Origin: an uncultured Candidatus Saccharibacteria bacterium
GTDB lineage: Bacteria > Patescibacteriota > Minisyncoccia > UBA11713 > 2-01-FULL-45-33
NCBI GenBank assembly: GCA_964367075.1
Contig: CAYIWH010000003.1
Location: forward strand, 1-44,549
Length of the DNA: 44,549 nt
Reading direction: 5' to 3'
The position numbers and the translations under genes are program-made. Below are positions 5,525 to 23,372 of this stretch, piece after piece. The notes under the pieces were generated by a model that had not been told where the DNA came from, did not search any database, and saw only the letters and a list, made by a program, of their open reading frames with translations. The stretch's first letter is position 1; the number at the start of each line of letters is the position of its first letter.

Positions 5525-5533
5525 TGCTATAAT
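5525..5533 (+). promoter_or_regulatory. Extended -10 promoter (TGCTATAAT), 8 nt upstream of ATG 5542; likely leaderless transcript
   Basis: Consensus TGnTATAAT with no Shine-Dalgarno. Confidence 0.7.
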
Positions 5534-5541
5534 GTAACAAT

Positions 5542-8898: not shown

Positions 8899-8970
8899 CG
8901 ATGCACCATTATTGTATGATCTTTCTGTTCTCTAGGCAACCAAAGTGCTTTGCTATATTATTGGTATATT

Positions 8971-9675
8971 ATGCGAGATATCGTACTGATACCAACATAC
9001 AATGAAAAGGAAAATATCCACGCTTTGATAAAAGATATTTTTGTAATCGCGCCAGATATTTTTGTACGTGTGGTTGATGATAATTCTCCGGACGGCACAG
9101 CGAATATCGTGCAAGAGCTGATGAACACATATCCAAATCTTTCGATCATGAGACGTGCTGGCAAGGAAGGACTTGGTATCGCGTACATCGATGCGTTCCG
9201 CGCGGTGCTTGCGGAATCGAACATCAGGTCGCTCACTATGATGGATGCCGATTTTTCACATGATCCGAAATATTTGCCGGAAATGTTGCGATCGATCGAT
9301 AACAACGATTTAGTAGTCGGCGCTCGATATTTAGCTGGTGGCGGGACCGAGGGATGGGAATGGTATCGCAAGACGTTGAGCCGGTTCGGCAATTTGTACT
9401 GCCGGTTGATTACGCGGATCCCGGTACACGACTGTACTGGAGGGTTTAATTGCATTCGTACTGATATGTTGCGTAAGATCGATTTGGTGGCGCTGTCTCA
9501 ATTTAAAGGGTATGCATTTATGATGGCGCTCAAATATCATTTGTGGCGCGCGCATGCGCGCATCGCGGAGATACCGATCATTTTTAAGAACCGCACGCTA
9601 GGTGTCTCTAAGATTTCTCAAAATATCGTTCGCGAAGGAATTCTTGCTCCATGGAGGATAATCATGCCACACTAA
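8971..9675 (+). CDS. Polyprenol monophosphomannose synthase-like GT2 (Ppm1/DPM1)
   Basis: IPTYNEKEN, VDDNSPDGT, KEGLGIAY, MDADFSHDP, DCTGGF, EIPIIFKNR; start ATG 8971. Confidence 0.9.
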   Translation: MRDIVLIPTYNEKENIHALIKDIFVIAPDIFVRVVDDNSPDGTANIVQELMNTYPNLSIMRRAGKEGLGIAYIDAFRAVLAESNIRSLTMMDADFSHDPKYLPEMLRSIDNNDLVVGARYLAGGGTEGWEWYRKTLSRFGNLYCRLITRIPVHDCTGGFNCIRTDMLRKIDLVALSQFKGYAFMMALKYHLWRAHARIAEIPIIFKNRTLGVSKISQNIVREGILAPWRIIMPH

Positions 9676-9717
9676 AAACATAGAAATTTCATGCATTTAT
9701 TAACGTAATAGAGGTTT

Positions 9718-10407
9718 TTATTTTTTCTTGGCGATCACCAGCCACGAAATGGCATCTTGCGGGAAAAGCCAATCGGTAAGTAACGAGAATATATAAAAAC
9801 CGACAGAGAGTGGGATATTCGCAATATGTCCCAATGCGTAGCGGGCGCGGCGTGGCAAGAAAGGAAACAGACGATACAAAAAGAGTGCGCTTTCTTCAGC
9901 GATGCGCGCGCCCAAAAATGAAAAGAGTCCGCCGAGCTTTTCCACGGTCGCGACCGTGTAATTTTTTTTCAATAATTCCTCAAGGCCGTACCGGGTAAAT
10001 CTCCAATAATCCATCGGTTCATAATGGAGCGGCCAATGCATGGGTGTCGAAACCATAAATACGCCGTTGGGTTTTAATACCCGCAGGATTTCACGCAGAG
10101 CACCTTGCGTATCGGCGACATGTTCCAAAACCTCCAAGCATACCACGCTATCAAATGACGCATCTTCAAATGGAAGATGCAAGATATCTCCAGCGACATC
10201 GGGTTTGAGCGACGCGTCAGAATCTAGGCTTATGTATTCTGAAGTGTTAAAATATTGAGCAAAGGGCTTAAGACCGGCTCCGATGTCCAGCGTCTTGCCG
10301 GTGATATCATGTCCGTATTTTTTCATGGCATTGCGAAATTGCACTTTCGGGATAAAAAGGTAAGATTTGAGCAACAGGTCAAGATTTAATATTTTCGGTA
10401 CATTCAT
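9718..10407 (-). CDS. Class I SAM-dependent methyltransferase (type 11)
   Basis: LDIGAG, LPFEDASFDSVVCLEVLEHV, RVLKPNG, HYEPMDYWRFT. Confidence 0.9.
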   Translation of the reverse strand: MNVPKILNLDLLLKSYLFIPKVQFRNAMKKYGHDITGKTLDIGAGLKPFAQYFNTSEYISLDSDASLKPDVAGDILHLPFEDASFDSVVCLEVLEHVADTQGALREILRVLKPNGVFMVSTPMHWPLHYEPMDYWRFTRYGLEELLKKNYTVATVEKLGGLFSFLGARIAEESALFLYRLFPFLPRRARYALGHIANIPLSVGFYIFSLLTDWLFPQDAISWLVIAKKK

Positions 10408-10425
10408 ATCAATAGAGTATCAAAG

Positions 10426-11718
10426 ATGTCCAAAAAATTCCAATTATTAATAATTATTATTTTTATCGCAGGCACCGGATTACGCCTTGCTTCTTTTTCG
10501 TGGAACACCGTTGTGCACGGCGATGTTGGGCAATACGCGGTCGCGTCCGAAGCGCTTGCTCACGGGTGGAATTTTTTGATTGATGCCGCGACCGATAAGC
10601 CGCATTTTTATTCTCTGCAAAAAACTGGCGGTAGATTTTTGGAGCACAATCCTTTGTGGCCGTTTATTGGGGGCATATTTATGAAAATATCTGACCTTGA
10701 CGGATATAAGACACTGAAAACGCTTTCTTTGATTAGTGGCATCGTGATCTTATATTTTGTTTTTTTGTTGGGGCGCAGGTTGGGTGGGGATCATGTCGCG
10801 ATCTTATCTTTATTTTTTACGGCGTTCTCATATCTTTTGATCGATTATTCCGGCAATGGTTCGTTTTATATTTTTCAGGCTCTTTTATATCTTGTGTTTG
10901 TATTATTGATGGTAGACGCGGAACGTCCGCGCAACCAGATAGCGCTTAGCGCGGTGATGGGTATCGGTATATTGCTCAATCAACAGGCGCTTATATTGAT
11001 CGCTGTATACGTTGTATATTGGCTGGTTGCAATATGCAGATCGCGCCGCGTTGCTACACTGGCGATCGCCTGGGGTCTTGCGATCCCGGCACTGTTTTAT
11101 CTGCCGTGGGGGGTCCGCAACTATATGCTTTTTGGCACGCCATTTTCGATGGTTGATACCGCATATGTCTGGAACAAACTCGGAGTAGGTAGTATCGTGG
11201 AAAACAATATCATTTCTTTTCGCATCACATTACAGACATATGGTACGTTGTTGTGGCGTGAGATCACATTTTGGTTCCCGCACAATCTATATTTTTTAAA
11301 TCGCCAATTTTTTGTTTTGGCTCCCGTTGTGTACATAGCGACGCTATTTGCCGCGGCGCGTATGTTATTTAAGGATTTGCGGGAGCAAATGCGTCATTTG
11401 CTGCCGCTCGCGTTAGTTTTAGGGGCTCATATCGCTCTGTCATCCGCGTGGCCAATCGCAAAATTCCGCTATATCGCGCCGGCATTACCGCTCATATTCA
11501 TTTTAGGGAGTTATTATATGATACATATGATTTTGGGCGCCCGATTGAGACGTTTTGCCGTAGTAGCAAGTATGATTGGTATCGTTGTTGTATCTTTGCT
11601 AACATACGTCTCAACGCCGACGCATACATATTATTATGGCGGATCGATTACGACGGATAATTTTGGAAAAAACGGCGAGGTAGAATTTTTAAAAAGTTTA
11701 AATAATCCGGAAGAATAA
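10426..11718 (+). CDS. ArnT/PMT-like (GT-C fold) membrane glycosyltransferase
   Basis: HGDVGQY loop, HNPLWPFI, many TMs, PWGVRNYMLFGTPF, KFRYIAP. Confidence 0.8.
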   Translation: MSKKFQLLIIIIFIAGTGLRLASFSWNTVVHGDVGQYAVASEALAHGWNFLIDAATDKPHFYSLQKTGGRFLEHNPLWPFIGGIFMKISDLDGYKTLKTLSLISGIVILYFVFLLGRRLGGDHVAILSLFFTAFSYLLIDYSGNGSFYIFQALLYLVFVLLMVDAERPRNQIALSAVMGIGILLNQQALILIAVYVVYWLVAICRSRRVATLAIAWGLAIPALFYLPWGVRNYMLFGTPFSMVDTAYVWNKLGVGSIVENNIISFRITLQTYGTLLWREITFWFPHNLYFLNRQFFVLAPVVYIATLFAAARMLFKDLREQMRHLLPLALVLGAHIALSSAWPIAKFRYIAPALPLIFILGSYYMIHMILGARLRRFAVVASMIGIVVVSLLTYVSTPTHTYYYGGSITTDNFGKNGEVEFLKSLNNPEE

Positions 11719-11832
11719 ATGTTCGATCCGAAATATAAAATATATATATATGCGATTATCTGGATCTTTATGATATTTACGTTCATTGAGGGCGTTATGT
11801 TGCGTTGGTCATTTCATTTCTATGGTTTCTAA
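11719..11832 (+). CDS. Candidate 37-aa single-TM small protein (MFDPKYKIYIYAIIWIFMIFTFIEGVMLRWSFHFYGF)
   Basis: ATG directly follows the upstream TAA; stop overlaps the start of the next gene; one hydrophobic helix; fills the whole intergenic gap. Confidence 0.55.
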   Translation: MFDPKYKIYIYAIIWIFMIFTFIEGVMLRWSFHFYGF

Positions 11833-14242
11833 AATAGAACAATTTCTTTCGCGGTGGTGGGGGATGGCGATCGTATTGGGCATTCCGTGTGTCATTGTTT
11901 TGGCGACGCTTCTTTTTGGGCGCCAGGTATTCGGTAGCTTTATCGGCATCGAACAGCAGTTGCAATATACGTACTTTTATCAGGACGCGGTGATCCGCGG
12001 AGATTCTGCGCTATGGAATCCTTATAATTTTTCCGGCTTTCCGACGTTTGCTGATCTTAATATTGGATTCTTCTCTCCTCTTGTCTATCTCGGAAGTCTT
12101 TTTTTGAGTGTTCCTGCGCTTTACTATTGGATGACGTTAATGACTATGATCCTTTCCGGGTTATTTTCCGCACTTTTGATGCGCTCTTTTAATGTGTCTA
12201 TATTGGGTCAATATATAGCGGGACTTATTTTTATATTTGTGACACGACAACAATGGCCCGATCTTACGGTGATGGAGTCTTTTATGCTGTTGCCGGGGAT
12301 CTTGTGGCTACTACATGAGATTGCCCGATCGGAGCGCCGGAAAATAACTATGTTGGCGGGCACTCTTGGTGCAATGCTTGTTTTGCAGGGATGGCTTGGC
12401 GGGCATTGGCATTTTGTTCTCAACGCGCTTTTGGTCGGGGGATTATTTGCGGTGTATCTTTTTTGGATCCATCGTTCGTATCGCATCCTTGTTTCTTATG
12501 TCGTTATGGTGTTGATGGGTACTTTTTTTGGTTTATTTAAAATGATACCCGTGTTTGTCATGATGAGTCATTCCGCCAGGGCCGGAGGATTTGGAGAAAC
12601 ATTCATTAGTGGCGAGGGTTTTTCGCTCATGGGTTTATTTACATTGTTGTCTCCTTCATTTGCTCATCCGCTGTTTCAGTCTGACGCGGATTGGATCTAT
12701 CTCGGACTGTTATCATTATTTTTGGCTGCCGGAGCGCTTACCTGGCGCTTACGCTCTCACAATGGTTTTTTTACGTACCTCATGGTTTTTTCGGCTCTCC
12801 TCGGCGTTCGTGGCTTGCCGTTTTTTGCGGTTTTACAACGAATCCCCCCGTTTACATTTACTCACTCCGCTGTTCGCTGGATCTACGTGGTAGGTTTTGC
12901 CATCGCGGTATTGGCTGGGTTTGGAATTGACCAAATAAAAAAGGGCACGGATATTCAGCGTTGGCGTGCTATTGCACGGAGATTTACTTTTACTTTTTTT
13001 ATATTTACTGTGGCCAGTATCGCCGGAGCCATTGTTACGCGGTTGGCGCAAAGGCATGCACGAGAGCTTTTGTTCCTGGGTAATAAGTATTTTGAAAAAT
13101 ATTATTATCACGCATCGTCCCCGATCCCATTGGAAAGCTATCATGTGTACATAGCAAAAATGTTCAATCAGGCTCTCTCTCTTTTTAATATCGGAAATGA
13201 CCAATTCTTTTTCGCTCTTATATTTATAGCCGTCAGTTCTTTCATTGTGTGGTTCTTTGCCAGTGGCTACATAACACCGCAAAACACGGCAATCGTGATA
13301 TCGATCGTTCTTGTCGGAAATTTTATCGGAACGCATATTTTTTTTGGGGATAGGTTTGCACGGACTGTATATGAAAAGGATCCTGTGACTGTCTCTTTTC
13401 TAAAAAATAAGACGGCACAAAACAAGCCGGAAGATGATGTTGGCCGGGTTATCTCATTTCTTGACGGGCGCGTGGAAAGTGAAATACTCGAGAATATTTA
13501 TGCGAACTCACCGCCTGCAGCGGAAAATTTTCAACTATACAGCGCAACACTGGTTCCTTCGCGCAACATAAAATACGGCATTACCAGCGCCGGATACAAT
13601 GCTACGATCACAAATCTTTCCATGGCGCGTGCAGTCGGTTATATCGGAGGACAAGTACAAATCTCTGATGCGGGGACGGGTTTGCTCAGAAATCTTAATC
13701 TTTCCGTACAAGAAAAGTCGCGCCTTTTCACCCACCGCCGCCCCATTATCTCCCTCCTTGGTATCCGCTATATTACGAGCGCCTACGCGCTCGATGAGAA
13801 AGTATTTCCCAAAGTCTTTGAAACCACCGCAACCTCCTACAACATCCCCGTCTATATCTACGAGAACACAGAAGCACGGCCTCTGTACTACTTCACCCAA
13901 GAAACAGAGCTCTTAGACCTTCCTACCTCAACCACACCCCAAGAGCTCCAGACATTGATAGAGAAGACCAATAAGACCCATTCCATCACCCAAGAGGGCA
14001 TTGCCCTCCAAGAACGTAAGAATGCCTCTTTAAAGCTCACCACCAATACTTCAAAACCACAGCTTCTCGTATTCTCCCAAAACAATCTTCCCGGATGGCG
14101 TGTGTTCATAGATGATCAGCGAGTACCGCTCCATACCTTTGCCACTGTTTATCAGGCAATAGTAGTGCCTCCAGGAACCCATGACATACGCTTTAAATAT
14201 AGTTATTGGGAGATATGGAGGGAGTTTTTGAAAAAAAGATGA
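11822..14242 (+). CDS. YfhO-family (GT-C fold) membrane protein, paralog 1
   Basis: LWNPYNFSGFPTFA, GWLGGHWHF, many TMs, LLGIRYI, C-terminal SQNNLPGWRVFID...VPPGTHDIRFKY; start ATG 11822. Confidence 0.85.
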   Translation: MVSKIEQFLSRWWGMAIVLGIPCVIVLATLLFGRQVFGSFIGIEQQLQYTYFYQDAVIRGDSALWNPYNFSGFPTFADLNIGFFSPLVYLGSLFLSVPALYYWMTLMTMILSGLFSALLMRSFNVSILGQYIAGLIFIFVTRQQWPDLTVMESFMLLPGILWLLHEIARSERRKITMLAGTLGAMLVLQGWLGGHWHFVLNALLVGGLFAVYLFWIHRSYRILVSYVVMVLMGTFFGLFKMIPVFVMMSHSARAGGFGETFISGEGFSLMGLFTLLSPSFAHPLFQSDADWIYLGLLSLFLAAGALTWRLRSHNGFFTYLMVFSALLGVRGLPFFAVLQRIPPFTFTHSAVRWIYVVGFAIAVLAGFGIDQIKKGTDIQRWRAIARRFTFTFFIFTVASIAGAIVTRLAQRHARELLFLGNKYFEKYYYHASSPIPLESYHVYIAKMFNQALSLFNIGNDQFFFALIFIAVSSFIVWFFASGYITPQNTAIVISIVLVGNFIGTHIFFGDRFARTVYEKDPVTVSFLKNKTAQNKPEDDVGRVISFLDGRVESEILENIYANSPPAAENFQLYSATLVPSRNIKYGITSAGYNATITNLSMARAVGYIGGQVQISDAGTGLLRNLNLSVQEKSRLFTHRRPIISLLGIRYITSAYALDEKVFPKVFETTATSYNIPVYIYENTEARPLYYFTQETELLDLPTSTTPQELQTLIEKTNKTHSITQEGIALQERKNASLKLTTNTSKPQLLVFSQNNLPGWRVFIDDQRVPLHTFATVYQAIVVPPGTHDIRFKYSYWEIWREFLKKR
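13725..14229 (+). repeat. 505-bp direct repeat, copy 1 (matches 17596..18100)
   Basis: Line-by-line comparison from TTTTCACCCACCGCCG to GGGAGTTTTT found no mismatch; offset 3871 bp. Confidence 0.95.
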
Positions 14243-14982
14243 CAAGCAATCTTGATATTTTTCTTTCAGTGGTGATTCCTGCATACAACGAAGAGCGACG
14301 TTTGCCACATACTCTTGTTTCAACGATTGATTACTTATCTCGGCAATCGTGGAACTATGAGATCATTGTTGTTTCTGATGGATCGTCTGATAATACCGTC
14401 AATATTGTAAAACAGTTCAAGCATGGCTACGAGAACATTATTATTTTGGATAACGAACAAAATCGCGGAAAAGGATATGCGGTGCGTCAGGGCATGATCG
14501 CGGCACGAGGGCATTTAAAGCTTTTTATGGACGCAGATAATGCCACGAAGATAAATGAAATAGAAAAATTGTTGCCGTTTGTGCCGACTCACGATGTTGT
14601 TATCGGATCCATTGGTGCATTGGGAGCGCATATGACACAAAGAGAAACGATATTTCGTATCATTGCGGGAAAACTCGGAAATCTTTTTATTCGGCTGCTT
14701 TTGATTCCGGGTATCTATGACACGCAGCGTGGGTTTAAGTTGTTTACTAAAAAAGCTGCGGATGAAATATTCCCTCGTCTCGTGGTTTCGCGATGGGGAT
14801 TTGATGTGGAGGCGCTGGCACTTGCAAGGGCGTCTGGTTTTTTAATTAAAGAAATACCGATCATCTGGTCACATCAGCAAGAGAGTAAGGTCGGGATGTT
14901 GTCGTATGCAAACGTGTTGGTGGATGTTTTGCGAATTCGCTGGCGATTGTGGCAAGACCTTTATAATATAAAGCATTTATGA
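14239..14982 (+). CDS. Dolichyl/polyprenyl-phosphate beta-glucosyltransferase-like GT2 (ALG5-like)
   Basis: SVVIPAYNEERRL, NRGKGYAV, FMDADNAT, DTQRGFKLF, WGFDVEAL; ATGA overlap at 14239. Confidence 0.88.
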   Translation: MTSNLDIFLSVVIPAYNEERRLPHTLVSTIDYLSRQSWNYEIIVVSDGSSDNTVNIVKQFKHGYENIIILDNEQNRGKGYAVRQGMIAARGHLKLFMDADNATKINEIEKLLPFVPTHDVVIGSIGALGAHMTQRETIFRIIAGKLGNLFIRLLLIPGIYDTQRGFKLFTKKAADEIFPRLVVSRWGFDVEALALARASGFLIKEIPIIWSHQQESKVGMLSYANVLVDVLRIRWRLWQDLYNIKHL

Positions 14983-14995
14983 TTTAATAGTTTGT

Positions 14996-15703
14996 ATGGA
15001 TGTACAAGATCGCTTGAAGTTAACAAAAGAGAATTTTACTCAATGGAACGAAGAAATGGTTAAGAAATACGGAACTATTTTAGAATCACAAACGCGCCAT
15101 TCTAATGCGATAGTACGATATATTGAAGGATTGCGGGTACGATGGGTGGTGCGGTATGTAAATGCGAATGAAAATGATATCGCGCTTGATGTAGGATGTG
15201 GCGGTGGAAATATATTAGAAAAAATTAAAGCAGGGAAGCTTTACGGCATTGATTTGTCGGAGACTCTTTTGGTGGTCGCCAAAAAACGACTGGGCGACCG
15301 AGCTACACTGCTAAATGGTGACGCGGAAGATATGGCTAAACTTTTCCCAAACAAAAAGTTTAGTAAAATTTTTTCCAGCGAGGTTATTGAACATTTGCTT
15401 CGTCCAGAAGCAATGATTTCAGAAATATATAAACTTATTGATACGAACGGGATTGTTGTCATCTCGATCCCGAATGAAAAAGTTATAAAAGCAGTAAAAC
15501 GAGTGTTGATTGTGACAGGATTGTTTAAACTCCTTTTTGCAAAGCGCAAAGAGGAAGCAGAGTATGAATGGCATTTGCATGATTTCGATTTGACCATGCT
15601 CCAGAAACTTATTCAAGGAAAATTTGTTGTTCAAAAAATAAAAAGAATCCCATTTTGGTTTTTTCCGTTGCGGTACGTTGTACGGATGAGCCCTATTAAA
15701 TAA
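14996..15703 (+). CDS. Class I SAM-dependent methyltransferase
   Basis: LDVGCGGG, GIDLS, SEVIEHL, ISIPNE, EWHLHDF. Confidence 0.88.
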   Translation: MDVQDRLKLTKENFTQWNEEMVKKYGTILESQTRHSNAIVRYIEGLRVRWVVRYVNANENDIALDVGCGGGNILEKIKAGKLYGIDLSETLLVVAKKRLGDRATLLNGDAEDMAKLFPNKKFSKIFSSEVIEHLLRPEAMISEIYKLIDTNGIVVISIPNEKVIKAVKRVLIVTGLFKLLFAKRKEEAEYEWHLHDFDLTMLQKLIQGKFVVQKIKRIPFWFFPLRYVVRMSPIK

Positions 15704-15713
15704 GTTGAAAATT

Positions 15714-18113
15714 ATGGCAGATGCGTCGGAGCGATTCTTAAAAAAGTGGTGGGGGATGGCTTTAACGCTTTCCGGAGTTATTTTTTTGACGCTTTTGCCT
15801 CAGCTTATTGGATATACTGAAATACTCCTAAGAACGTATGAGCTGTTTCAATTCCCAGTGCTTGTGTTTTATAAAGTCGCAATTTTACAAGGAGAAAGTA
15901 TTTTATGGAATCCATTTATTTTTTCCGGATTTCCAGTTTTCGTAAGTGTTACGGGCGGTTTTTTTTCTCCAATTTTCTATGTCGCTCTCAAGTTTTTCTC
16001 AGTTCCTTTGGCATACCATTGGTTGACGTTTTTTAATCTTTTAATTGCTTCTTTTGTTACCACGCGCGTTGCTCATAAATTGCACATTAGGCCATTGGGA
16101 CAGTTTCTTGCAGGGATCGTATATATTTTTGGCGCGGGACATTATGTTTTTTTCCTTCCCGCGACAAATGCGCTTGTTTTATTGCCGATTCTCGTTTTTT
16201 GTTTAATGGAAGCCGACGAGAGGCTGCGTTTTTGGCCTATAGCTGTTGGAACATTTGGTGTTTTTTTGGGGTGGACCTCTTCTCATTGGCAGTGGTTTTT
16301 TTTGGTTTTAACTACCGTCGGCTTTTTTGCAATATATTTTTCATATAACAGAGCTCAACAGGGCGTAAAAAATTTTTTTCAACCACTTCTTTGTTTTATA
16401 TGCATGGTAGCGGGAGGGACTTTTTTTGGTTTGATACAGATTATTCCAACACTAACATTCGTCCCACTCTCGGTTCAATTGGCGAGCGGGTACTCTCATG
16501 TTGCAGATCTGTACGCAGGCATTAATCCGATTACACTTGTCACGTTTTTTTTGCCGTATTTTGAGCATTCTTTTATCACCGCAGAGTCTATATATATTGG
16601 CATATTACCAATTGTATTTTTTCTTGCAGCTATCAGATTTTCAACGCTCATTAGTAGGTTTCTTATTTTGTTATTTTGGATGTTGTTTTTGTTGGCGACA
16701 GCCTATTCTCCGTTGTTTTGGCTGATGCATCATATCCCGCCACTTAATTTGCTTCATGGACCACAGCGGTGGATATACGTCGGATTTTTCCCCTTTGCGC
16801 TTCTAGTTGGTTTTGGAGCAGACGCACTAAGAGATCCAAAAAACGCTTTTCGTATAAAAATATTTTCACGCTTGATCAAGTGGATATCAATACTTTTGGT
16901 GATGGTAAGCACGGCGAGCGGATTTTTGAAGTATTTCTTTAATGACAAATTACTCTTCTTGCTCAATACATATTTCGATGAATTTTTATTTTCTCCATCT
17001 ATGCAGTATGCTCCAGATTATTACCATCGCTATATTGCAAGTACGATAAATTCTGCGTTACAAATTTTTGATCCTCTTAATATTCAGTTTGCTCTTCCTA
17101 TGTTTTTTTTGGTGTGCACATATATTTTGTTGAGGTATTATGAGCGGACCAAATTCGAAAGTAAAAACTTTATTGCTATAGCCACTATTGTTGTGGTTTT
17201 GAATTTTGTTTTTGTATTTTGGGCGTTCGACGGGCTGTGGAGTAGGCAAAAATATTTAAATACTATGCCAAAAACCACAGATTTTATTAAAGATTCTTAT
17301 AATGGAAGATATTTTACTTTTTTGGGAACTACCGCGATTTTTGAAAAGCTTACGATTCCGCATTCAGGAGAAAAAGATTTTCGTAAAAATCTTTTTGATT
17401 TTAATGGCGAACTTTTATTATTAAATATAAATGTACCATATAAAATCCATGGAGCCGAATATTTGGAACCCATGGCATCTCGCAATATGGCCGAGTTGCT
17501 TGCGTATTTGGGAAGTCCAGCCGCAGGCACCGTTCGTGGAGTTGCAACTACAACATTGCTTGATGCAAAAATATCGGTTGCAAAGAAATCTCAAATTTTC
17601 ACCCACCGCCGCCCCATTATCTCCCTCCTTGGTATCCGCTATATTACGAGCGCCTACGCGCTCGATGAGAAAGTATTTCCCAAAGTCTTTGAAACCACCG
17701 CAACCTCCTACAACATCCCCGTCTATATCTACGAGAACACAGAAGCACGGCCTCTGTACTACTTCACCCAAGAAACAGAGCTCTTAGACCTTCCTACCTC
17801 AACCACACCCCAAGAGCTCCAGACATTGATAGAGAAGACCAATAAGACCCATTCCATCACCCAAGAGGGCATTGCCCTCCAAGAACGTAAGAATGCCTCT
17901 TTAAAGCTCACCACCAATACTTCAAAACCACAGCTTCTCGTATTCTCCCAAAACAATCTTCCCGGATGGCGTGTGTTCATAGATGATCAGCGAGTACCGC
18001 TCCATACCTTTGCCACTGTTTATCAGGCAATAGTAGTGCCTCCAGGAACCCATGACATACGCTTTAAATATAGTTATTGGGAGATATGGAGGGAGTTTTT
18101 CGTTTTCAAATAA
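15714..18113 (+). CDS. YfhO-family (GT-C fold) membrane protein, paralog 2
   Basis: LWNPFIFSGFPVF, SHWQWF, many TMs; C-terminal ~168 aa identical to paralog 1. Confidence 0.85.
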   Translation: MADASERFLKKWWGMALTLSGVIFLTLLPQLIGYTEILLRTYELFQFPVLVFYKVAILQGESILWNPFIFSGFPVFVSVTGGFFSPIFYVALKFFSVPLAYHWLTFFNLLIASFVTTRVAHKLHIRPLGQFLAGIVYIFGAGHYVFFLPATNALVLLPILVFCLMEADERLRFWPIAVGTFGVFLGWTSSHWQWFFLVLTTVGFFAIYFSYNRAQQGVKNFFQPLLCFICMVAGGTFFGLIQIIPTLTFVPLSVQLASGYSHVADLYAGINPITLVTFFLPYFEHSFITAESIYIGILPIVFFLAAIRFSTLISRFLILLFWMLFLLATAYSPLFWLMHHIPPLNLLHGPQRWIYVGFFPFALLVGFGADALRDPKNAFRIKIFSRLIKWISILLVMVSTASGFLKYFFNDKLLFLLNTYFDEFLFSPSMQYAPDYYHRYIASTINSALQIFDPLNIQFALPMFFLVCTYILLRYYERTKFESKNFIAIATIVVVLNFVFVFWAFDGLWSRQKYLNTMPKTTDFIKDSYNGRYFTFLGTTAIFEKLTIPHSGEKDFRKNLFDFNGELLLLNINVPYKIHGAEYLEPMASRNMAELLAYLGSPAAGTVRGVATTTLLDAKISVAKKSQIFTHRRPIISLLGIRYITSAYALDEKVFPKVFETTATSYNIPVYIYENTEARPLYYFTQETELLDLPTSTTPQELQTLIEKTNKTHSITQEGIALQERKNASLKLTTNTSKPQLLVFSQNNLPGWRVFIDDQRVPLHTFATVYQAIVVPPGTHDIRFKYSYWEIWREFFVFK
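17596..18100 (+). repeat. 505-bp direct repeat, copy 2 (matches 13725..14229)
   Basis: Direct sequence comparison. Confidence 0.95.
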
Positions 18114-18137
18114 CGTTTTTTGAAGTACTATTATACT

Positions 18138-18872
18138 ATGGAAACCAAACTGTATCGCGAGATGTATCAACAAGAAAAGCGCCATTGGTGGTTTGTGGGA
18201 AGAAGAAAAATTATTCATAGCTTTCTACAACAATGTATACATACGCCCCGCGCTTCCGCTCTTGATGTCGGCTGCGGCACCGGATTTAATCTCGAATTGT
18301 TGCGGGAATTTTCCAACGATGTCCAGGGATTGGAGCCGTCTTCCGAGGTTGTAAGCTTTTTGCAGCAAGAACGTGCGGATTTTCCCATCATTCACGGTAC
18401 ATTTCCAGAAGATGCCATGTCCAAAACATATGACATTGTCACATTGTTGGACGTACTCGAACACATAGACGATGATGAGGCCGCGCTAAAAAAGATAGAA
18501 AAATTGCTCGCGCCCGATGGAATTGCTTTAATCACGGTGCCGGCGCTTTCCTTTTTATGGACTGAGCATGATACACTTCATCATCACAAGCGCCGATATA
18601 CCAAAAAAGAATTAATAGAAAAGATTGGACGTTCTACTCATTTAGAAATAGAACAAATCAGTTACATGAATTTTTTGCTCGCACCCATGATTATGGCGAT
18701 AAGGATGATAAAGAAGATCTTGCATGCAAGACCCGACAAATCCGACTTATTTGCTGTGTCGGCCATACCAAATGCCATATTGATAGGCATATTTTCATTT
18801 GAGCTCCATATATTGCGTTTTATCAATTTTCCATTCGGGATCTCTTTAATATGCGTTTTGCGCAAGAAATAA
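18138..18872 (+). CDS. Class I SAM-dependent methyltransferase
   Basis: EKRHWWFVGRR, LDVGCGTG, LDVLEHI, TVPA..LWTEHD..HHHKRRY; start ATG 18138. Confidence 0.9.
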   Translation: METKLYREMYQQEKRHWWFVGRRKIIHSFLQQCIHTPRASALDVGCGTGFNLELLREFSNDVQGLEPSSEVVSFLQQERADFPIIHGTFPEDAMSKTYDIVTLLDVLEHIDDDEAALKKIEKLLAPDGIALITVPALSFLWTEHDTLHHHKRRYTKKELIEKIGRSTHLEIEQISYMNFLLAPMIMAIRMIKKILHARPDKSDLFAVSAIPNAILIGIFSFELHILRFINFPFGISLICVLRKK

Positions 18873-18875
18873 CAA

Positions 18876-21260
18876 ATGTACAAAATATCCAATAAATTTT
18901 TTTATACACTACTCATATTGCCTATTATTGGTGCCTTGTCGCCGTTCTTGTTTGGTCGCAGCGTTTTTTTTCACATCGATTTTATCACGCAGCATTTGCC
19001 GTACTTTTATTTTTTTAAACAATCTATTGTTTCTGGAAACAATTTTTTGTGGAATCCGGATGTTTTTTCCGGCTTTTCCGGATTTGCTAGCTACAATCAC
19101 GTTTTCTTAACGCCGTGGTCTGTTTTTTTATTATATTTTGTTTCGCCATGGACCGCATATGTTTATTCAGTATTTTTTATGTTGGCGCTTATGGGAGTTT
19201 GCATGGCGGCGCTGATGAGGTATATGGGTATTTCGCGATGGGGTGCGGTGACTGGATCAATTGTGTTTGTGTTTAGCCAATGGATGTTGATTTATGATCT
19301 GCCAATCGTAAATACGTTTTATATTTTGCCGCTATTATTTTTGTCGCTGCTTTTATTCTTTAAGCGGAGACACAAATGGATGTTGGTTGTAGGAATGGTG
19401 TCTGTAGGATTGGGGTTGGCGTCGGGGCACTGGCAATTTATGATAGAGATTTTTTCTGCTGCCGGTGTGTTTGCGGTTTATTTGGGTTTGCGCGATACGA
19501 AGTTTTGGCGGGTTCCACTGGCCTATGCGAGCATGATAATCGTCGGCGTGGCGCTCTCTTTGCCGAAATTGATTCCTGCTATCGTTTTTTTACAAAATTC
19601 AGTTCGTAACAGCGGCGTTGGACATGGAGATGCGGTGCGGGCCGGATTTACTCTTTTCGACCCGCTGCGGTTATTTATGCCTTTCGACATTGCTTTTCTT
19701 GGTTTTGCACCGGAACATTTTACGTATGTGGGAGCTATGGTGCCACTGTTGTTTGTTTTGGGGTTTTCTTTCCGCAAAGAGGGGTATGCGAAGTTTTTTT
19801 CCTGGTTTTTCCTGATTGCGCTGGTCTTGAGCGTAAAATATTCTCCCCTGTATTGGGTATTGCATCACGCCCCGATTTTTAACATTACAAGACACGCGGA
19901 GCGTTGGGGATTATTGATGTTTTTTGCCGCCTCGGTGCTGGTGGGATTCGGCGTTGATGTTTTGTGGAACAATTTTGAAAACATAAAGAACAGCGCGCGA
20001 ATAAAGATACTGATACGCATATATGGCACTATGGTTATGGTGGCGACAATGGTCGGATTAGTATCAACGTATCTTGTTCATTTTTATTTTCAATCACTGG
20101 TGTCCAAAGTATATTTTCTATTTGATCGTTATGCGTATTCTAAAACATCCGGCGCTCTGGGTTTGGATTATTATCATGCCTATATACAAAAAAATATTTT
20201 AGACGTCCTTTCAAATTTTGACCTTGTAGATCCGCGATCTTTTTTTGCGCTTATTTTCTTGGTGGGAGCATATTTTTTATGTCGTAGTATCGCTCGTAGC
20301 AAGCATATCACGCGCAGTCGGGTTGCGCTGTTTGTTGTCGCCAATATTGTGCTTGTATTTCCGTTTTTAGGCCGGACCGTATCTATCCAAGCTTTAACCG
20401 ATAAGCCAATGACCGCGTCTGTGTTGCACAACACCGAACAAACGAAAGTATTTGATTTTCTGGTGCGCAAGGGAACATATGAGCAGATAGAATTGCCGTG
20501 GCGCGATGTTCAGGGACAATCTTTGTACAATGTGTTGACGCGTTATTATGTCGCGGCCGCTTATCCCAACACCGGCATATTAAACGGTTTTCGTTCGGCG
20601 GCGCTTTACGATACGATCATGGCACGTCCGATGGCACGGTTGCTTGCGTACATTGGCAGCGAACGAAGCGAATTTAGAGGTGACAAGCTATCAGGTCTTC
20701 CGGTTTCCACTGAAGAAAAAATGAATCTTTTGGATTCCCGTATTGCTTTGGTGCGATTTTTGGGAATCACACATATTACGACGCCATATGAATTTACCGA
20801 CACGTCGCCGTTTCATAAAATTTTACAACAATCATTTCCAAACAACGGAAGCAATCTTTTTGTATACGAGATTTTGAATTCCCGTCCGCGGTATTATTTT
20901 ACCGATGAGACATGGCTGATAGATATGGATAACAATGCGACCGATCCGGCGGTGTTGCAAAGTATCATTGAAGCTCACGCGCCAGTCATCACTCAACGGG
21001 GCATTGTTGCGGCAAAGCAAAAAAATACTGAAATGTATTTTGAAACGGATCGCGAACAAGAACAGTTATTGGTAGTATCTCAAAATAATCTGCCTGGTTG
21101 GCGTGCCTGGATAGACGGTGCAGAGATACCGATCCATACATTTGGCACCGTATTTCAGGCGTTGTACGTACCTCCAGGTAAGCACGTTGTCGTATTGCGA
21201 TACGAGTACTCGGAGATTATAAAATATTTTTTCAAAAATAATTTCGGCATTACATTATGA
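18876..21260 (+). CDS. YfhO-family (GT-C fold) membrane protein, paralog 3
   Basis: LWNPDVFSGF, SGHWQF, DYYHAYI, MARLLAYIGS, SQNNLPGWRAWIDG...VPPGKH; homologous but diverged C-terminus. Confidence 0.85.
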   Translation: MYKISNKFFYTLLILPIIGALSPFLFGRSVFFHIDFITQHLPYFYFFKQSIVSGNNFLWNPDVFSGFSGFASYNHVFLTPWSVFLLYFVSPWTAYVYSVFFMLALMGVCMAALMRYMGISRWGAVTGSIVFVFSQWMLIYDLPIVNTFYILPLLFLSLLLFFKRRHKWMLVVGMVSVGLGLASGHWQFMIEIFSAAGVFAVYLGLRDTKFWRVPLAYASMIIVGVALSLPKLIPAIVFLQNSVRNSGVGHGDAVRAGFTLFDPLRLFMPFDIAFLGFAPEHFTYVGAMVPLLFVLGFSFRKEGYAKFFSWFFLIALVLSVKYSPLYWVLHHAPIFNITRHAERWGLLMFFAASVLVGFGVDVLWNNFENIKNSARIKILIRIYGTMVMVATMVGLVSTYLVHFYFQSLVSKVYFLFDRYAYSKTSGALGLDYYHAYIQKNILDVLSNFDLVDPRSFFALIFLVGAYFLCRSIARSKHITRSRVALFVVANIVLVFPFLGRTVSIQALTDKPMTASVLHNTEQTKVFDFLVRKGTYEQIELPWRDVQGQSLYNVLTRYYVAAAYPNTGILNGFRSAALYDTIMARPMARLLAYIGSERSEFRGDKLSGLPVSTEEKMNLLDSRIALVRFLGITHITTPYEFTDTSPFHKILQQSFPNNGSNLFVYEILNSRPRYYFTDETWLIDMDNNATDPAVLQSIIEAHAPVITQRGIVAAKQKNTEMYFETDREQEQLLVVSQNNLPGWRAWIDGAEIPIHTFGTVFQALYVPPGKHVVVLRYEYSEIIKYFFKNNFGITL

Positions 21261-22366
21261 AAAAAATACTTTTTTCCATCGGACGCCTAAGTGTCGGGGG
21301 CGCGGAGAAGCTTTTGATGTATAAATTGAAACATCTTAATACTGATCTTTTTGAGCCGCGCCTGTTGACATTGTTTCCAGAAACTCAGGAAAGTCTTGCA
21401 GATTTGTTGCCGATGTCCCCATCTTTGTGGCGTCATGCGAATTTTCGTGGAACGTTTGATGTGATGGCATTTTTTCGTTTGTGGCGATGGTTGCGCAAGG
21501 AACGATTCGACGTCGTGGTTACTGAACTTTTTTCAGCGAATTTGATAGTCAGGGCAGCGACACTATTGGTGCATCCTCGACCGGTATTGATTAGCTATGA
21601 ACACAATTTGTATCCGGACAAGTCTCGATGGCAGATTTGTACGGACCGCTTTTTGTCGCTCTTTACGGCGCGCATTATTGTTGACGCATCATCAGTAAAA
21701 ACATTTACCGCAAAACAAGAGAGCATTCCCGAAGAAAAATTTGTCATACAATACCATCCACCGCTTATTTTTGATGAGCCGGCGTATACGCGCGAGGAAT
21801 TACTGCGGAAATTCAACATTGCGACTAATGCGAAAATAATTTTAACGGTAAGCCGTCTCGTGCCGGAAAAAGGACACGAATATTTGATGCGTGCGGCATC
21901 CGAAGTCATCAAAAAATATCCTCGTGCATATTTTTTGATTGTGGGATGGGGTCAGCTATCGGAGCGTCTTGCCGTCGTCAATCGTGAATTTCATACAGAA
22001 AAAAATATCATTTTAACCGGCCGCATGGATATAAAAGATGTATTGCCGTACGCCGATATTTATGTAGAGCCGGCGCTTATCGTGGATGTAGGTATAGCGA
22101 CACTGGAAGCAATGAAATTGGGCAAGCCCATCGTTTCTACGAATGTCGGTGATATGCCGATTTTTGTTAAAGAAAACAAAAATGGTTTTTTGGTGTCGCC
22201 TCACGACGTATTTGCCTTGACCGAACGTATTGTCACGCTACTTGTTCAGCCAGAATTGCGATCAAGCATGGGAGCGTATTCGACAAAAATAGTAGCGCAA
22301 CATACCATTGCGGCTTATACGCGGGCATTTGAATCGTTGGTACTTGCTGTTGCTGAAACGCGGTAA
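21257..22366 (+). CDS. GT4 glycosyltransferase
   Basis: GGAEKL, EHN, VSRLVPEKGH, LEAMKLGKPIVSTNVG. Confidence 0.88.
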   Translation: MKKILFSIGRLSVGGAEKLLMYKLKHLNTDLFEPRLLTLFPETQESLADLLPMSPSLWRHANFRGTFDVMAFFRLWRWLRKERFDVVVTELFSANLIVRAATLLVHPRPVLISYEHNLYPDKSRWQICTDRFLSLFTARIIVDASSVKTFTAKQESIPEEKFVIQYHPPLIFDEPAYTREELLRKFNIATNAKIILTVSRLVPEKGHEYLMRAASEVIKKYPRAYFLIVGWGQLSERLAVVNREFHTEKNIILTGRMDIKDVLPYADIYVEPALIVDVGIATLEAMKLGKPIVSTNVGDMPIFVKENKNGFLVSPHDVFALTERIVTLLVQPELRSSMGAYSTKIVAQHTIAAYTRAFESLVLAVAETR

Positions 22367-22397
22367 TAGTTATATATTACAAAGTATAATATTATAT

Positions 22398-23372
22398 ATG
22401 ATGTTAACCGATAAAAAAATTTCGATTGTTATTGTATGTTACAATGATGCAGGCTCGGTGAAAGAGATGTATCGTAGGGTGACGAAGGTTATGAAGCAAA
22501 TCACCCCAAATTATGAAATTGTTTATGTCAACGACAAAAGTCCGGACAACGCTCTGGATATATTGCGCGAAATCGCGTCCCATGACAAACGCTTGATTGT
22601 CATGAGTCACTCGCGCAATTTTGGTGGGCAGGCCGCATACGCTTCAGGCTTGCGTTATGTGACGGGAGACGCCGTCATTACGCTGGACGGCGATATCCAA
22701 GATCCGCCAGAGCTTTTCCCCGAACTTATTAAACGATGGCTAGAAGGGTATAAGGTTGTTTACGGTATTCGGGAGAGGCGTGAAGAAGGAAATGCTATTC
22801 GAGGATTTTTTTATAAAGCTTTTTACAGAGTTTTTCGAAAGCTTTCTAATATCATGCCACTTGACGCCAGTGATTTTGCATTGATAGATCGCGAAGCTCT
22901 GGATGTTTTAAATTCGATGCCAGAGGTGGATCGATATATGCGTGCTATGCGCGCCTTCGTCGGTTTTAAGAGCATAGGAATTCCATATACACACATGGAA
23001 CGTTTTGCTGGCAAGACCAATTTTAATTTTTTTGGTTATATACGTTTTGCCAAGGGTCTTATTTTTTCATTTTCAAAAAGACCCATTGAATGGATTTTTC
23101 ATCTTGCCCTTGGTGTTGGCGCGTTGTCTGTAGCATCAATTTTTTTTTATATCTTTTCAGCGATCTTTGTATCTGCCCCATCGTTGTCCGTAACGATCTT
23201 AGTTGTAGCGCTTTTTTTAGGAGCGATACAGATGTTTTCCCTTTCGATTATCGCGGAATATTTGCTTCGCACATTTGATGAGACAAAGCATCGCCCATCC
23301 GCAATAATTGACGAGATCATCAACGACTACAGAGATTATAAAAGAAAAACGAGAAATGGCACAAACATATGA
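22398..23372 (+). CDS. GtrB-like GT2 bactoprenol glycosyltransferase with two C-terminal TMs
   Basis: NDKSPDN, HSRNFGGQAA, LDGDIQDPPE, GYKVVYG, DASDFALIDR, ETKHRP; start ATG 22398. Confidence 0.9.
   Translation: MMLTDKKISIVIVCYNDAGSVKEMYRRVTKVMKQITPNYEIVYVNDKSPDNALDILREIASHDKRLIVMSHSRNFGGQAAYASGLRYVTGDAVITLDGDIQDPPELFPELIKRWLEGYKVVYGIRERREEGNAIRGFFYKAFYRVFRKLSNIMPLDASDFALIDREALDVLNSMPEVDRYMRAMRAFVGFKSIGIPYTHMERFAGKTNFNFFGYIRFAKGLIFSFSKRPIEWIFHLALGVGALSVASIFFYIFSAIFVSAPSLSVTILVVALFLGAIQMFSLSIIAEYLLRTFDETKHRPSAIIDEIINDYRDYKRKTRNGTNI

What the first reader, a model, noticed from the sequence alone, without database searches (positions are those of the whole stretch)
13725..18100. Identical 505-bp C-terminal cassette shared by two divergent YfhO-like glycosyltransferases, bracketing a 3.9-kb pop-out unit
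Seen: paralogs 1 and 2 are strongly diverged over their first ~630 aa, then become nucleotide-identical for 505 bp (FTHRRPII...EIWREF) and diverge again only in the last four residues. Paralog 3 has a homologous but diverged version of the domain. Inference: a very recent gene conversion or domain swap. Recombination between the copies would leave one intact YfhO gene and excise or amplify a 3871-bp unit (ALG5-like GT2, methyltransferase, YfhO-2 membrane domain). That would be a reversible glycan switch, or a 'variable membrane domain + constant external domain' shuffling system for surface variation.
Basis: partly seen in the sequence, partly recalled or inferred. Interest (0 to 1): 0.85.

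Follow-up and report, generated by a model that had tools for sequence, protein, structure and literature searches.

The report
Shared end-domain in neighbouring sugar-transferase genes
Two long-diverged neighbouring membrane sugar-transferase genes of a tiny groundwater bacterium carry a letter-for-letter identical last domain, and the same pattern in unrelated relatives points to repeated copying between neighbours, not a dedicated genetic switch.

Summary
Window 13725-14229 and 17596-18100 are identical over 505 nt, and sequence at the same offset outside them is at random level. The repeat encodes the C-terminal beta-sandwich domain of two YfhO-type GT-C glycosyltransferases. Their first ~646 residues are only 28-31% identical and fall into two old orthologue groups.

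The best explanation is ordinary homologous recombination (gene conversion) confined to this domain, that is, domain-restricted concerted evolution. It recurs. Adjacent YfhO pairs in two other families of the same class carry exact runs of 524 nt (G101) and 635 nt (G234) at the homologous place. One further family shows older, patchy tracts. A ~80%-identical relative shows the same cassette with two different tails. It is not universal: 8 of 14 adjacent pairs show nothing.

A crossover between the repeats would delete or amplify 3871 bp in frame. No recombinant was seen, and the assembled contigs available could not have shown one. I found no recombinase or inverted repeat. A programmed, reversible switch is therefore unsupported. 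This is a new example of a known process, of moderate interest.

The parts
13725..14229 (+). Cassette copy 1 (R1): 505-nt exact repeat. It encodes residues 647-814 of YfhO-1, the C-terminal beta-sandwich domain. A GGAG lies 14 nt before the ATG of the next gene.
17596..18100 (+). Cassette copy 2 (R2): identical 505 nt, encoding the C-terminal domain of YfhO-2.
11786..14242 (+). YfhO-1, a GT-C membrane glycosyltransferase of 818 aa from the first TTG. A database gene call uses a later start and gives 792 aa. Its stop overlaps the start of the next gene (ATGA).
14239..14982 (+). GT2a: short GT2 glycosyltransferase with weak, below-cut-off likeness to polyprenyl-phosphate sugar synthases (PpgS, dolichyl-phosphate hexose transferase, AglJ). 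It lies inside the 3871-bp unit.
14996..15703 (+). MT-a: class I SAM-dependent methyltransferase, inside the unit.
15705..18113 (+). YfhO-2, a GT-C membrane glycosyltransferase of 802 aa. Its N-terminal 630 aa belong to an orthologue group different from that of YfhO-1.
18120..18872 (+). MT-b: class I methyltransferase, 28% identical to MT-a over 99 aa. It is absent at this place in the relative L015.
18876..21260 (+). YfhO-3, the third paralog (794 aa). Its C-terminal domain is 41-42% identical to the cassette and is not homogenised.
14230..18100 (+). The 3871-bp unit that a crossover between R1 and R2 would delete or duplicate. This is inferred from geometry and was not observed.
21257..23372 (+). 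Downstream GT4 (21257-22366) and PgfS-like GT2 (22308-23372; 223.8 bits against a cut-off of 500). The GT2 is a likely polyprenyl-phosphate sugar synthase feeding the GT-C enzymes.

Best explanation
The 505-bp repeat is the C-terminal beta-sandwich domain of two old, tandem YfhO-type GT-C glycosyltransferase paralogs. They lie in a co-directional, tightly packed run of genes inside a 44-kb surface-glycan gene island of an ultra-small (785 kb) groundwater bacterium. The two copies of the domain are kept identical by ordinary RecA-type homologous recombination (intrachromosomal gene conversion) between the neighbouring genes. The membrane/catalytic module and the proximal part of the external domain (residues 1-646) have diverged to 28-31% identity. 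Conversion stops on the left where homology is lost, at the start of the domain. It stops on the right four codons before the stop, where the downstream neighbours differ. This is domain-restricted concerted evolution, and it recurs in adjacent YfhO pairs of other families of the same class.

Shown: the identity, the tree conflict, the recurrence, the domain boundary, the presence of RecA and the absence of any recombinase gene in the window.

Inferred: (a) the process is ongoing and not a single event; (b) the shared domain serves a common task, most likely holding the same acceptor polymer or surface, by analogy with the C-terminal carbohydrate-binding modules of other GT-C enzymes, while the N-terminal modules differ in donor or linkage; (c) as a by-product, the perfect direct repeats make the locus prone to RecA-dependent deletion or tandem amplification of 3871 bp.
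For: Identity and flanks: 505/505 nt, with flanks at random level. Third codon positions are 98% identical in the C-terminal part and 33% in the N-terminal part.

Old paralogy: in the N-terminal tree of 29 rows, win_Y1 groups with P0002 and L012a (100*) and win_Y2 with P0003/4/5/14 and L012b (100*). The metagenome contig L012 carries PMT2, a Y1-like gene, an MT-a-like gene and a Y2-like gene in the same order. Its two C-terminal domains are only 45% identical.

Conflict: in the C-terminal tree of 32 rows, win_Y1 and win_Y2 are sisters (96/82*) next to P0002 and L015a.

Relative: the P0002 cassette (its N-terminal part is a Y1 orthologue, 75%) and the L015 cassette (followed by a Y3 orthologue, 78%) are 100% identical over 180 aa and then differ in the tail. 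They are only 78.6% identical in nt (63% at third positions) to the window's cassette.

Recurrence in adjacent pairs: G101 (family f8) has N 30% aa / 43% nt against C 98% aa / 99% nt, with an exact run of 524 nt. G234 (f46) has N 62/67 against C 97/98, with an exact run of 635 nt. G175 and G023b/c (f5) have N 49% against C 74-79% aa, with an abrupt rise to about 90% nt at the homologous boundary. In f5 the within-genome paralog C-terminal identity (78, 75) exceeds the orthologue C-terminal identity (65-67), although N-terminal orthologues (70) exceed paralogs (49). The non-adjacent pairs examined showed no near-identity in the C-terminal part: G098 24/38, G208 42/38, G023a against b and c 23-24/36-38, and the non-neighbouring G746 combinations.

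Structure: the AlphaFold2 model has pLDDT 94. The last membrane helix ends at 517. Residue 647 lies in helix 641-650, just before strands 660-805. Foldseek gives 13 PDB hits at E<=1e-3, all among GT-C enzymes such as ArnT, AftD, STT3 and AglB.

Machinery: RecA is present and MutS domain V was not found in a genome estimated 99.58% complete. None of the 37 ORFs scanned hit a recombinase, integrase or transposase family.

Assembly: all four junctions appear in contigs of 4 runs, and one contig spans 13181-14295. The cassette is a lone 505-nt contig of depth 9.9 between flanks of 6.3-6.8. No variant letters were reported in it.
Against: Homogenisation is not general. 8 of 14 adjacent same-strand pairs show none: the window's own YfhO-2/YfhO-3, L012a/b, and all six pairs from other classes of the phylum.

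The three intermediate cases are from one family and are not independent. For G196 only the C-terminal part of one gene was available.

P0002 and L015 come from different data sets. They may be one gene in two arrangements, not two genes of one genome, because L015's 11 residues before the cassette are Y1-like.

The direction of transfer and whether conversion was continuous or re-established are unresolved, because the C-terminal tree is a polytomy at that depth.

The runs were seen only as assembled contigs, which can hide rare differences between copies, and they may be the source sample of the window.

The acceptor-binding role is an analogy. The isolated domain model had no PDB match at E<=1e-3. 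The AU tests of the tree conflict did not return.
Confidence: 0.75

Rival explanations
1. Programmed glycan switch. The two cassettes act as recombination sites, and cells switch reversibly between a three-enzyme and a two-enzyme state by excising, re-integrating or amplifying the 3871-bp unit.
For: Perfect 505-nt direct repeats in frame, so either product keeps an intact gene. The unit carries a complete set of GT2, methyltransferase and GT-C N-terminal module. A relative shows the cassette joined to two different downstream contexts. Some contigs of the same samples leave the window's sequence at 14844, 16055, 18890 and 18901, which hints at other arrangements nearby.
Against: None of the 37 scanned ORFs is a site-specific recombinase, integrase or transposase. 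There are no inverted repeats of 40 nt or more. No joints were reported, and the depth of the unit is about equal to that of its flanks, although contigs are weak evidence. An excised circle has no visible replication or integration function, so loss would be one-way. In G101 and G234 nothing lies between the paralogs, so there is no cargo to switch.
Confidence: 0.07
2. A single, recent, selectively neutral conversion or domain swap in this lineage, with no continuing process and no functional meaning.
For: Zero differences fit one very recent event. 8 of 14 adjacent pairs elsewhere are not homogenised. No close relative with both genes could be examined.
Against: Exact or near-exact tracts with the same boundaries occur in G101 and G234, and older tracts in family f5. 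The closest relatives P0002 and L015 share a cassette that is identical between them yet 21% diverged in nt from the window's. One event between C-terminal domains as diverged as those of L012 (45% aa) would lack homology for recombination.
Confidence: 0.1
3. Assembly artefact: two similar but distinct C-terminal regions, or two strains, were collapsed or chained into one contig by the metagenome assembler.
For: The genome is a metagenome bin of 45 contigs. Another assembly broke inside the repeat: P0013 is YfhO-2 cut 15 residues into the cassette, on a 3617-nt contig. Contig-level data hide rare variants.
Against: The only path that uses all four observed junctions once is the tandem order. 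One contig of run X3 spans 13181-14295. The cassette contig ends exactly at both repeat ends and has about 1.5 times the flank depth. Other assemblies show the same pattern with a few retained differences, for example G101 with 2 mismatches in 535 nt, and the tract ends respect a protein domain boundary.
Confidence: 0.04
4. Recent tandem duplication of one YfhO gene followed by very fast divergence of the N-terminal part.
For: The genes are neighbours, and G234 (N-terminal part 62% identical) looks like a younger pair.
Against: N-terminal third positions are at random level, 33%. Both N-terminal types have orthologues in other organisms, in the same gene order in L012.
Confidence: 0.02

Closest known systems
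Concerted evolution of prokaryotic paralogs by gene conversion (tufA/tufB and the 26 genes of PMC6053082; abstract and passages read)
   Same: Paralogs within a genome are more alike than orthologues between genomes. Synonymous sites are homogenised. The process recurs in several lineages and is attributed to ongoing conversion.
   Different: Here only one domain (~170 of ~810 residues) is homogenised, while the rest of the protein is at 28-31% identity. The genes are adjacent direct repeats. No glycosyltransferase appears in that paper's main text (0 occurrences of 'glycosyl'); its supplements were not seen.
Three-component extracytoplasmic glycosylation: CsbB/GtcA/YfhO of Bacillus and Listeria (PMC5836110, passages read; PMC7389260, listing only)
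   Same: A GT2 enzyme that would load a polyprenyl phosphate lies in the same gene run as a multi-helix YfhO/GT-C enzyme with a large external domain. Pfam YfhO hits and a GT-C fold support this.
   Different: There are three tandem YfhO paralogs with interleaved methyltransferases. No C-terminal membrane helix follows the external domain, whereas B. subtilis YfhO is described with 13 helices and the loop between the last two. The acceptor and sugars are unknown, and no GtcA-type flippase was identified here.
C-terminal carbohydrate-binding modules of other GT-C enzymes (EmbC, PMC3044687, title and abstract start in a search listing only; AftD and EmbB among the fold hits)
   Same: A membrane GT-C core is followed by an external beta-rich C-terminal module. 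This is the basis for proposing acceptor binding.
   Different: The cassette domain has no significant structural match to a solved carbohydrate-binding module. The best Foldseek E-value is 9e-3, to side domains of GH30 enzymes. Binding is untested.
Cassette-type surface variation and RecA-dependent deletion or amplification between direct repeats (for example pilE/pilS; recalled, no call)
   Same: Identical segments shared by otherwise different genes give recombination anchors, and products stay in frame.
   Different: In those systems the variable segment is copied into one expression site from silent cassettes. Here both genes are full-length and apparently expressed in one operon, and it is the constant part that is copied.

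Membership tests
YfhO family (Pfam PF09586) / GT-C glycosyltransferases | Match to the family profile above the curated cut-off (28.5 bits) | tested here: met
   YfhO-3 scores 67.6 bits and YfhO-1 32.1 bits (C-terminal stretch 729-805 only). YfhO-2 scores 26.1 bits, just below the cut-off on its own. No NCBIfam model matched. phmmer finds 5075 relatives at E<=1e-3.
YfhO family (Pfam PF09586) / GT-C glycosyltransferases | Many membrane helices (8-13) plus a large external domain | tested here: met
   Hydropathy peaks run up to residue ~520. The AlphaFold2 model (pLDDT 94) has helices up to 517 followed by a ~300-residue soluble region.
YfhO family (Pfam PF09586) / GT-C glycosyltransferases | GT-C fold | tested here: met
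   Foldseek against the PDB gives 13 hits at E<=1e-3, including ArnT 5f15, AftD 6w98, STT3 of OST complexes and AglB 3waj. AftA, EmbB and PglB follow at weaker E-values. There was no sequence-level PDB hit.
YfhO family (Pfam PF09586) / GT-C glycosyltransferases | Conserved acidic motif in an external loop | tested here: inconclusive
   The 106-sequence alignment has no invariant D or E. The invariant columns are P290, W771 and G797. PMC5836110 also reports no conserved DXD in YfhO homologues.
YfhO family (Pfam PF09586) / GT-C glycosyltransferases | Transfer of a sugar from a polyprenyl-phosphate donor to an external acceptor | not testable with these tools
   Only the context speaks for it: GT2a, and a PgfS-like GT2 (223.8 bits, cut-off 500), lie in the same gene run.
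Concerted evolution by interlocus gene conversion | Within-genome paralogs closer than orthologues in the tract, with orthology preserved outside it | tested here: met
   C-terminal tree against N-terminal tree. The family f5 identity matrix shows the same. The AU test did not return.
Concerted evolution by interlocus gene conversion | Synonymous sites homogenised, with sharp tract ends | tested here: met
   505/505 nt. Third positions are 98% identical against 33% outside. Exact runs of 524 nt and 635 nt occur in G101 and G234.
Concerted evolution by interlocus gene conversion | Recurrence in independent lineages | tested here: met
   3 of 14 adjacent pairs, in three families, are at least 98% identical in the tract. 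3 of 14, in one family, are intermediate. 8 of 14 show none.
Programmed DNA rearrangement (phase-variation switch, shufflon) | Dedicated site-specific recombinase at or near the locus | tested here: not met
   37 of the 43 ORFs of at least 150 aa in the window were scanned with Pfam. The 6 left out are antisense ORFs overlapping longer ones. No recombinase, integrase or transposase family was hit.
Programmed DNA rearrangement (phase-variation switch, shufflon) | Both arrangements present in a population | tested here: inconclusive
   No joints were reported, but only k-mer contigs were available and these cannot link across 505 nt. The P0002 / L015 tail difference is compatible but ambiguous.

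The most novel reading that the evidence does not exclude
The C-terminal cassette is a portable recombination anchor. It is kept identical between neighbouring genes and is near-identical within a population. It therefore lets whole N-terminal GT-C catalytic modules, with their accessory GT2 and methyltransferase genes, be deleted, duplicated or exchanged between strains in frame. This would diversify the cell-surface glycan of host-dependent ultra-small bacteria at population level, as a modular 'constant acceptor-binding domain, swappable catalytic module' system.
Probability: 0.2. Interest if true: 0.7.

Novelty: new member of a known kind. Interest (0 to 1): 0.5.

Why it matters
The finding shows that YfhO-type GT-C enzymes are built from two evolutionary modules that can be separated exactly at the start of the last beta-sandwich domain. 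In several lineages of ultra-small groundwater bacteria this domain is kept letter-identical between neighbouring enzymes whose catalytic parts are as diverged as unrelated family members.

This gives a concrete, testable hypothesis for a domain of unknown role: a shared acceptor or surface recognition, independent of donor specificity.

It also gives natural chimera boundaries for domain-swap experiments, and a marker locus where strain-level structural variation of the surface glycan could be read from long reads.

For genome evolution it adds a domain-restricted, recurrent case of concerted evolution in a streamlined genome in which RecA was found and MutS domain V was not. It does not reveal a new kind of genetic system.

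Tried and rejected
Recombinant junctions. Read laying on 4 runs (one study, 2 samples, possibly the window's source) returned only Logan contigs. No joint across the unit was reported, but contigs built from 31-letter words cannot link across 505 nt, so this says nothing either way. A stray X3 record joining 14864 back to 10419 with 24 foreign letters, and loose ends at 14844, 16055, 18890 and 18901, remain unexplained. The two loose ends I searched are not in the genome at up to 3 mismatches.

Context of the Y1 orthologue P0002. No close YfhO-2 orthologue is in the protein database: the best hit is 40% identical, and the 'shorter' search gave one 63% fragment.

Dimerisation of the cassette domain, as a reason for identity. 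Complex prediction with two copies gave 'no answer' (score 0.00, mark 0.42). This is no evidence for or against.

Fold of the isolated domain. Foldseek against the PDB gave 0 hits at E<=1e-3. The weak hits were beta-sandwich side domains of GH30 and GH146 enzymes, CBM6 and cupins, which is not enough to name a fold family. The sequence search of the PDB with the family profile gave 0 hits at E<=1.

AU tests of the tree conflict. Two script calls gave no answer and I dropped the test.

I rejected the recent-duplication reading (N-terminal tree). I also rejected a recent replacement of the YfhO-2 N-terminal part by transfer, because L012 has a Y2-type gene at the same position.

Literature. 'YfhO' with 'gene conversion' gave 1 paper, on Chlamydia ompA and irrelevant. 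'Patescibacteria' with 'gene conversion' gave 5 papers, none on this by title or abstract start. 'GT-C' with 'glycosyltransferase', 'paralogs' and 'gene conversion' gave 1 paper, on trypanosomatid UGTs. In the search for YfhO with CPR terms, none of the 15 papers listed of the 568 found holds both YfhO and Patescibacteria. Supplements of all papers were closed, and those of PMC6053082 could list further concertedly evolving genes.
Full report
OBSERVATION. The repeat is real and exact. Window 13725-14229 equals 17596-18100, 505 nt at offset 3871. The repeat finder lists this pair as the only direct repeat family of at least 40 nt and finds no inverted repeat. Outside the tract, 60-nt blocks at the same offset match at 11-22 of 60 positions. 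In the whole 785-kb assembly (45 contigs, estimated 99.58% complete; the window is contig C3) the sequence occurs only at these two places. A self-comparison finds only one other repeat of at least 80 nt at 90% identity or more, a 98-nt pair.

GENES. The repeat lies at the 3' ends of two ORFs, 11786-14242 (818 aa, YfhO-1) and 15705-18113 (802 aa, YfhO-2). They align in register over their full length. Before residue 647 they are 28-31% identical in aa, 45% in nt and 33% at third codon positions. After it they are identical up to four codons before the stop (tails LKKR and FVFK). A third paralog (18876-21260) has a C-terminal domain 41-42% identical to the cassette.

Between the genes lie a short GT2 (14239-14982, whose start overlaps the YfhO-1 stop as ATGA), two class I methyltransferases (14996-15703 and 18120-18872), then a GT4, a PgfS-like GT2 and an SDR. 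All are on one strand with gaps or overlaps of a few bases.

The whole 44.5-kb contig is a surface-glycan island. It holds a nucleotidyl transferase, further GT2, GT4 and GT9 enzymes, four PMT_2-type GT-C proteins, about eight methyltransferases, two DegT aminotransferases, a Wzx-type flippase, a Wzy_C/TPR protein and an initiating Bac_transf enzyme. None of the 37 ORFs scanned hit a recombinase, integrase or transposase family. The 6 ORFs of the 43 of at least 150 aa that I left out are antisense ORFs inside longer ones.

WHAT THE PROTEINS ARE. Pfam YfhO (PF09586) matches YfhO-3 (67.6 bits) and YfhO-1 (32.1 bits), both above the 28.5-bit cut-off. YfhO-2 scores just below it at 26.1 bits. A phmmer scan finds 5075 relatives at E<=1e-3.

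An AlphaFold2 model of YfhO-1 from a 106-sequence alignment is confident (pLDDT 94, pTM 0.93). It shows membrane helices up to residue 517, a mixed external region from 520 to 640, two short helices (641-657), a beta-sandwich (strands 660-805) and a terminal helix (hydropathy agrees). Foldseek finds 13 PDB chains at E<=1e-3, including ArnT, AftD, the STT3 subunits of oligosaccharyltransferase and AglB, with AftA, EmbB and PglB just below. This is the GT-C fold.

In Bacillus, YfhO is the proposed external GT-C enzyme that moves a sugar from a C55-P carrier, loaded by the GT2 CsbB, onto lipoteichoic acid (PMC5836110, passages read). By that analogy the window's enzymes would decorate a surface polymer using lipid-linked sugars made by the neighbouring GT2 enzymes. 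This is inferred, not shown.

The cassette starts at residue 647, inside helix 641-650. It is therefore almost exactly the last structural domain, not the whole external region. Modelled alone (pLDDT 92.4), the domain has no PDB match at E<=1e-3.

IS IT AN ASSEMBLY ARTEFACT? Four runs of one groundwater study (2 samples) hold 88-92% of the sampled words of the 9.5-kb stretch, but only as Logan contigs. All four junctions are present. One contig of run X3 spans 13181-14295, from the YfhO-1 side through the cassette into GT2a. In run X2 the cassette is a lone 505-nt contig ending exactly at both repeat ends, with depth 9.9 between flanks of 6.3-6.8. No variant letters were reported inside it.

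The tandem order is the only path that uses each junction once. These runs may be the window's own source, and contigs can hide rare variants, so raw reads are still needed. Another assembly broke inside the repeat: P0013 is YfhO-2 cut 15 residues into the cassette, on a 3617-nt contig.

HISTORY. A tree of the N-terminal parts (29 rows, quick method) gives three well-supported orthologue groups. These are YfhO-1 with P0002 and L012a (100*), YfhO-2 with P0003, P0004, P0005, P0014 and L012b (100*), and YfhO-3 with L015b (100*). The metagenome contig L012 carries a PMT_2 gene, a Y1-like gene, an MT-a-like gene and a Y2-like gene in the window's order. The paralogs and their arrangement are therefore old.

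In L012 the two C-terminal domains are 45% identical, against 29% for the N-terminal parts. This is the unconverted baseline. A tree of the C-terminal domains (32 rows, careful method) instead makes win_Y1 and win_Y2 sisters (96/82*). That conflict is the signature of gene conversion.

The nearest relatives add a twist. P0002 is a Y1 orthologue, 75% identical in the N-terminal part. The 1176-nt contig L015 carries a cassette followed after a short spacer by a Y3 orthologue (78%), with no MT-b between them. The two share 180 identical cassette residues and then differ in the tail. Their cassette is 78.6% identical in nt (63% at third positions) to the window's.

Either that organism also has two genes with one cassette, which would mean independent homogenisation, or L015 is a Y1'-Y3' deletion-type arrangement. 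L015's 11 residues before the cassette are Y1-like, so I cannot decide between these.

RECURRENCE. I searched the cassette-domain profile in 401 genomes of the same class (38 with a match) and in 401 of the phylum (63 with a match). I then fetched every same-strand pair whose C-terminal matches lie within 5 kb on one contig. The results for N-terminal against C-terminal parts were as follows.
- G101 (family f8): 30% aa / 43% nt against 98% aa / 99% nt. The tract is 535 nt with 2 mismatches, and its longest exact run is 524 nt.
- G234 (f46): 62/67 against 97/98, with an exact run of 635 nt.
- G175 and G023b/c (f5): 49% against 74-79% aa. G023b/c jump from about 55-60% to about 90% nt at a boundary within 5 residues of the window's.
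- G196 (f5): C-terminal part 75% aa. The N-terminal part of one gene lies off the contig.

In G101 the left end of the tract maps within about 3 residues of the window's residue 647, and in G023b/c within about 5. In G234 the identity begins about 30 residues earlier. In G101 and G234 the right end lies a few codons before the stop, leaving gene-specific tails, and in G023b/c identity falls off over the last ~40 nt.

Within family f5, paralog C-terminal domains of one genome (78% and 75%) are closer than orthologous ones (65-67%). The N-terminal parts show the opposite (orthologues 70%, paralogs 49%). P0012 groups with G023c in the N-terminal tree but falls outside G023b+G023c in the C-terminal tree.

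Against this, the window's YfhO-2/YfhO-3, L012a/b and all six adjacent pairs from other classes (G746 three pairs, G502, G673, G542) show no excess. Non-adjacent pairs show none either: G098, G208, G023a against b and c, and the non-neighbouring G746 combinations.

The tally over 14 adjacent pairs is 3 near-identical (three families), 3 intermediate (one family) and 8 none.

MECHANISM. The simplest account is RecA-dependent gene conversion between neighbouring direct copies. RecA is present. MutS domain V was not found, so the mismatch-repair barrier to recombination between slightly diverged copies may be absent. That rests on one family search.

Tracts end where homology ends. On the right this is at the gene end, because the downstream neighbours differ. 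On the left it is at the start of the last domain, beyond which the sequences are saturated.

Three lineages show zero or nearly zero divergence and others show none. This suggests a process that either runs often enough to keep copies identical or has been lost, after which the domains drift apart as in L012. Whether selection favours identity (a shared acceptor or surface contact for enzymes acting on the same polymer) or merely forbids conversion of the catalytic part cannot be decided here. I favour a shared acceptor-side role by analogy with the C-terminal modules of Emb and AftD enzymes. The EmbC paper was seen only as a title and abstract start in a search listing.

THE SWITCH IDEA. That is a property of all long direct repeats, and some heterogeneity is to be expected. 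Nothing marks it as programmed. There is no recombinase, no specific sites, no cargo between the paralogs in G101 or G234, and the unit's depth is similar to that of its flanks. Deletion would be one-way for a cell line.

The bolder population-level reading is that the cassette acts as an anchor for exchanging catalytic modules between strains. It is not excluded, given the P0002 / L015 tails and the unexplained contig ends at 14844, 16055, 18890 and 18901. I give it about 0.2.

COMPARISON AND NOVELTY. Concerted evolution of bacterial paralogs is known and considered rare when long-lasting (PMC6053082, passages read). Partial-gene conversion is a known process. I found no report of it for YfhO or GT-C enzymes, or in Patescibacteria (these were full-text keyword searches of the held library only). 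I therefore file this as a new member of a known kind, of moderate interest.

LIMITS. No raw reads were available. The survey sample covers about 800 genomes. All genomes are metagenome bins. 

Noticed in passing
window 14844, 16055, 18890, 18901: Logan contigs of the same groundwater samples match the window up to, or from, these points and then continue with unrelated sequence. The two loose ends tested are not in this genome. A co-occurring strain or relative may have a different arrangement of the YfhO array.
   Followed up: partly
L015:1-1176 (metagenome contig): In a relative about 80% identical, the cassette-bearing gene is followed after a short spacer by the YfhO-3 orthologue, without the methyltransferase MT-b that sits there in the window (18120-18872).
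   Followed up: partly
window 4190-11718: Four PMT_2-type GT-C membrane proteins (4190-5524, 5542-7230, 7231-8898 on the minus strand, 10426-11718) lie just upstream of the three YfhO genes. That makes seven GT-C enzymes within 17 kb of a 785-kb genome. They share no repeat of 40 nt or more.
   Followed up: no
whole window 1-44549: The entire contig, about 5.7% of the genome, is one glycan-biosynthesis island with about eight SAM-dependent methyltransferases interleaved with glycosyltransferases. This suggests heavily methylated surface sugars.
   Followed up: no
G000 genome: The RecA family is present (C20:353-1135), but MutS domain V (PF00488) was not found in a genome estimated 99.58% complete.
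   Followed up: partly
G051:C3:16481-16915: A match to the YfhO C-terminal domain in another genome is interrupted by 9 stop codons (4 TGA, 5 TAA). It is probably a decayed paralog.
   Followed up: no
G000 C4:35460-35557 and C18:3637-3734: The only other repeat in the assembly is a 98-nt inverted pair at 98% identity on two contigs. I did not examine it.
   Followed up: no
window 41151-42377: This 408-aa ORF has no Pfam match. It lies next to a protein with a peptidoglycan-binding domain, at the edge of the glycan island.
   Followed up: no
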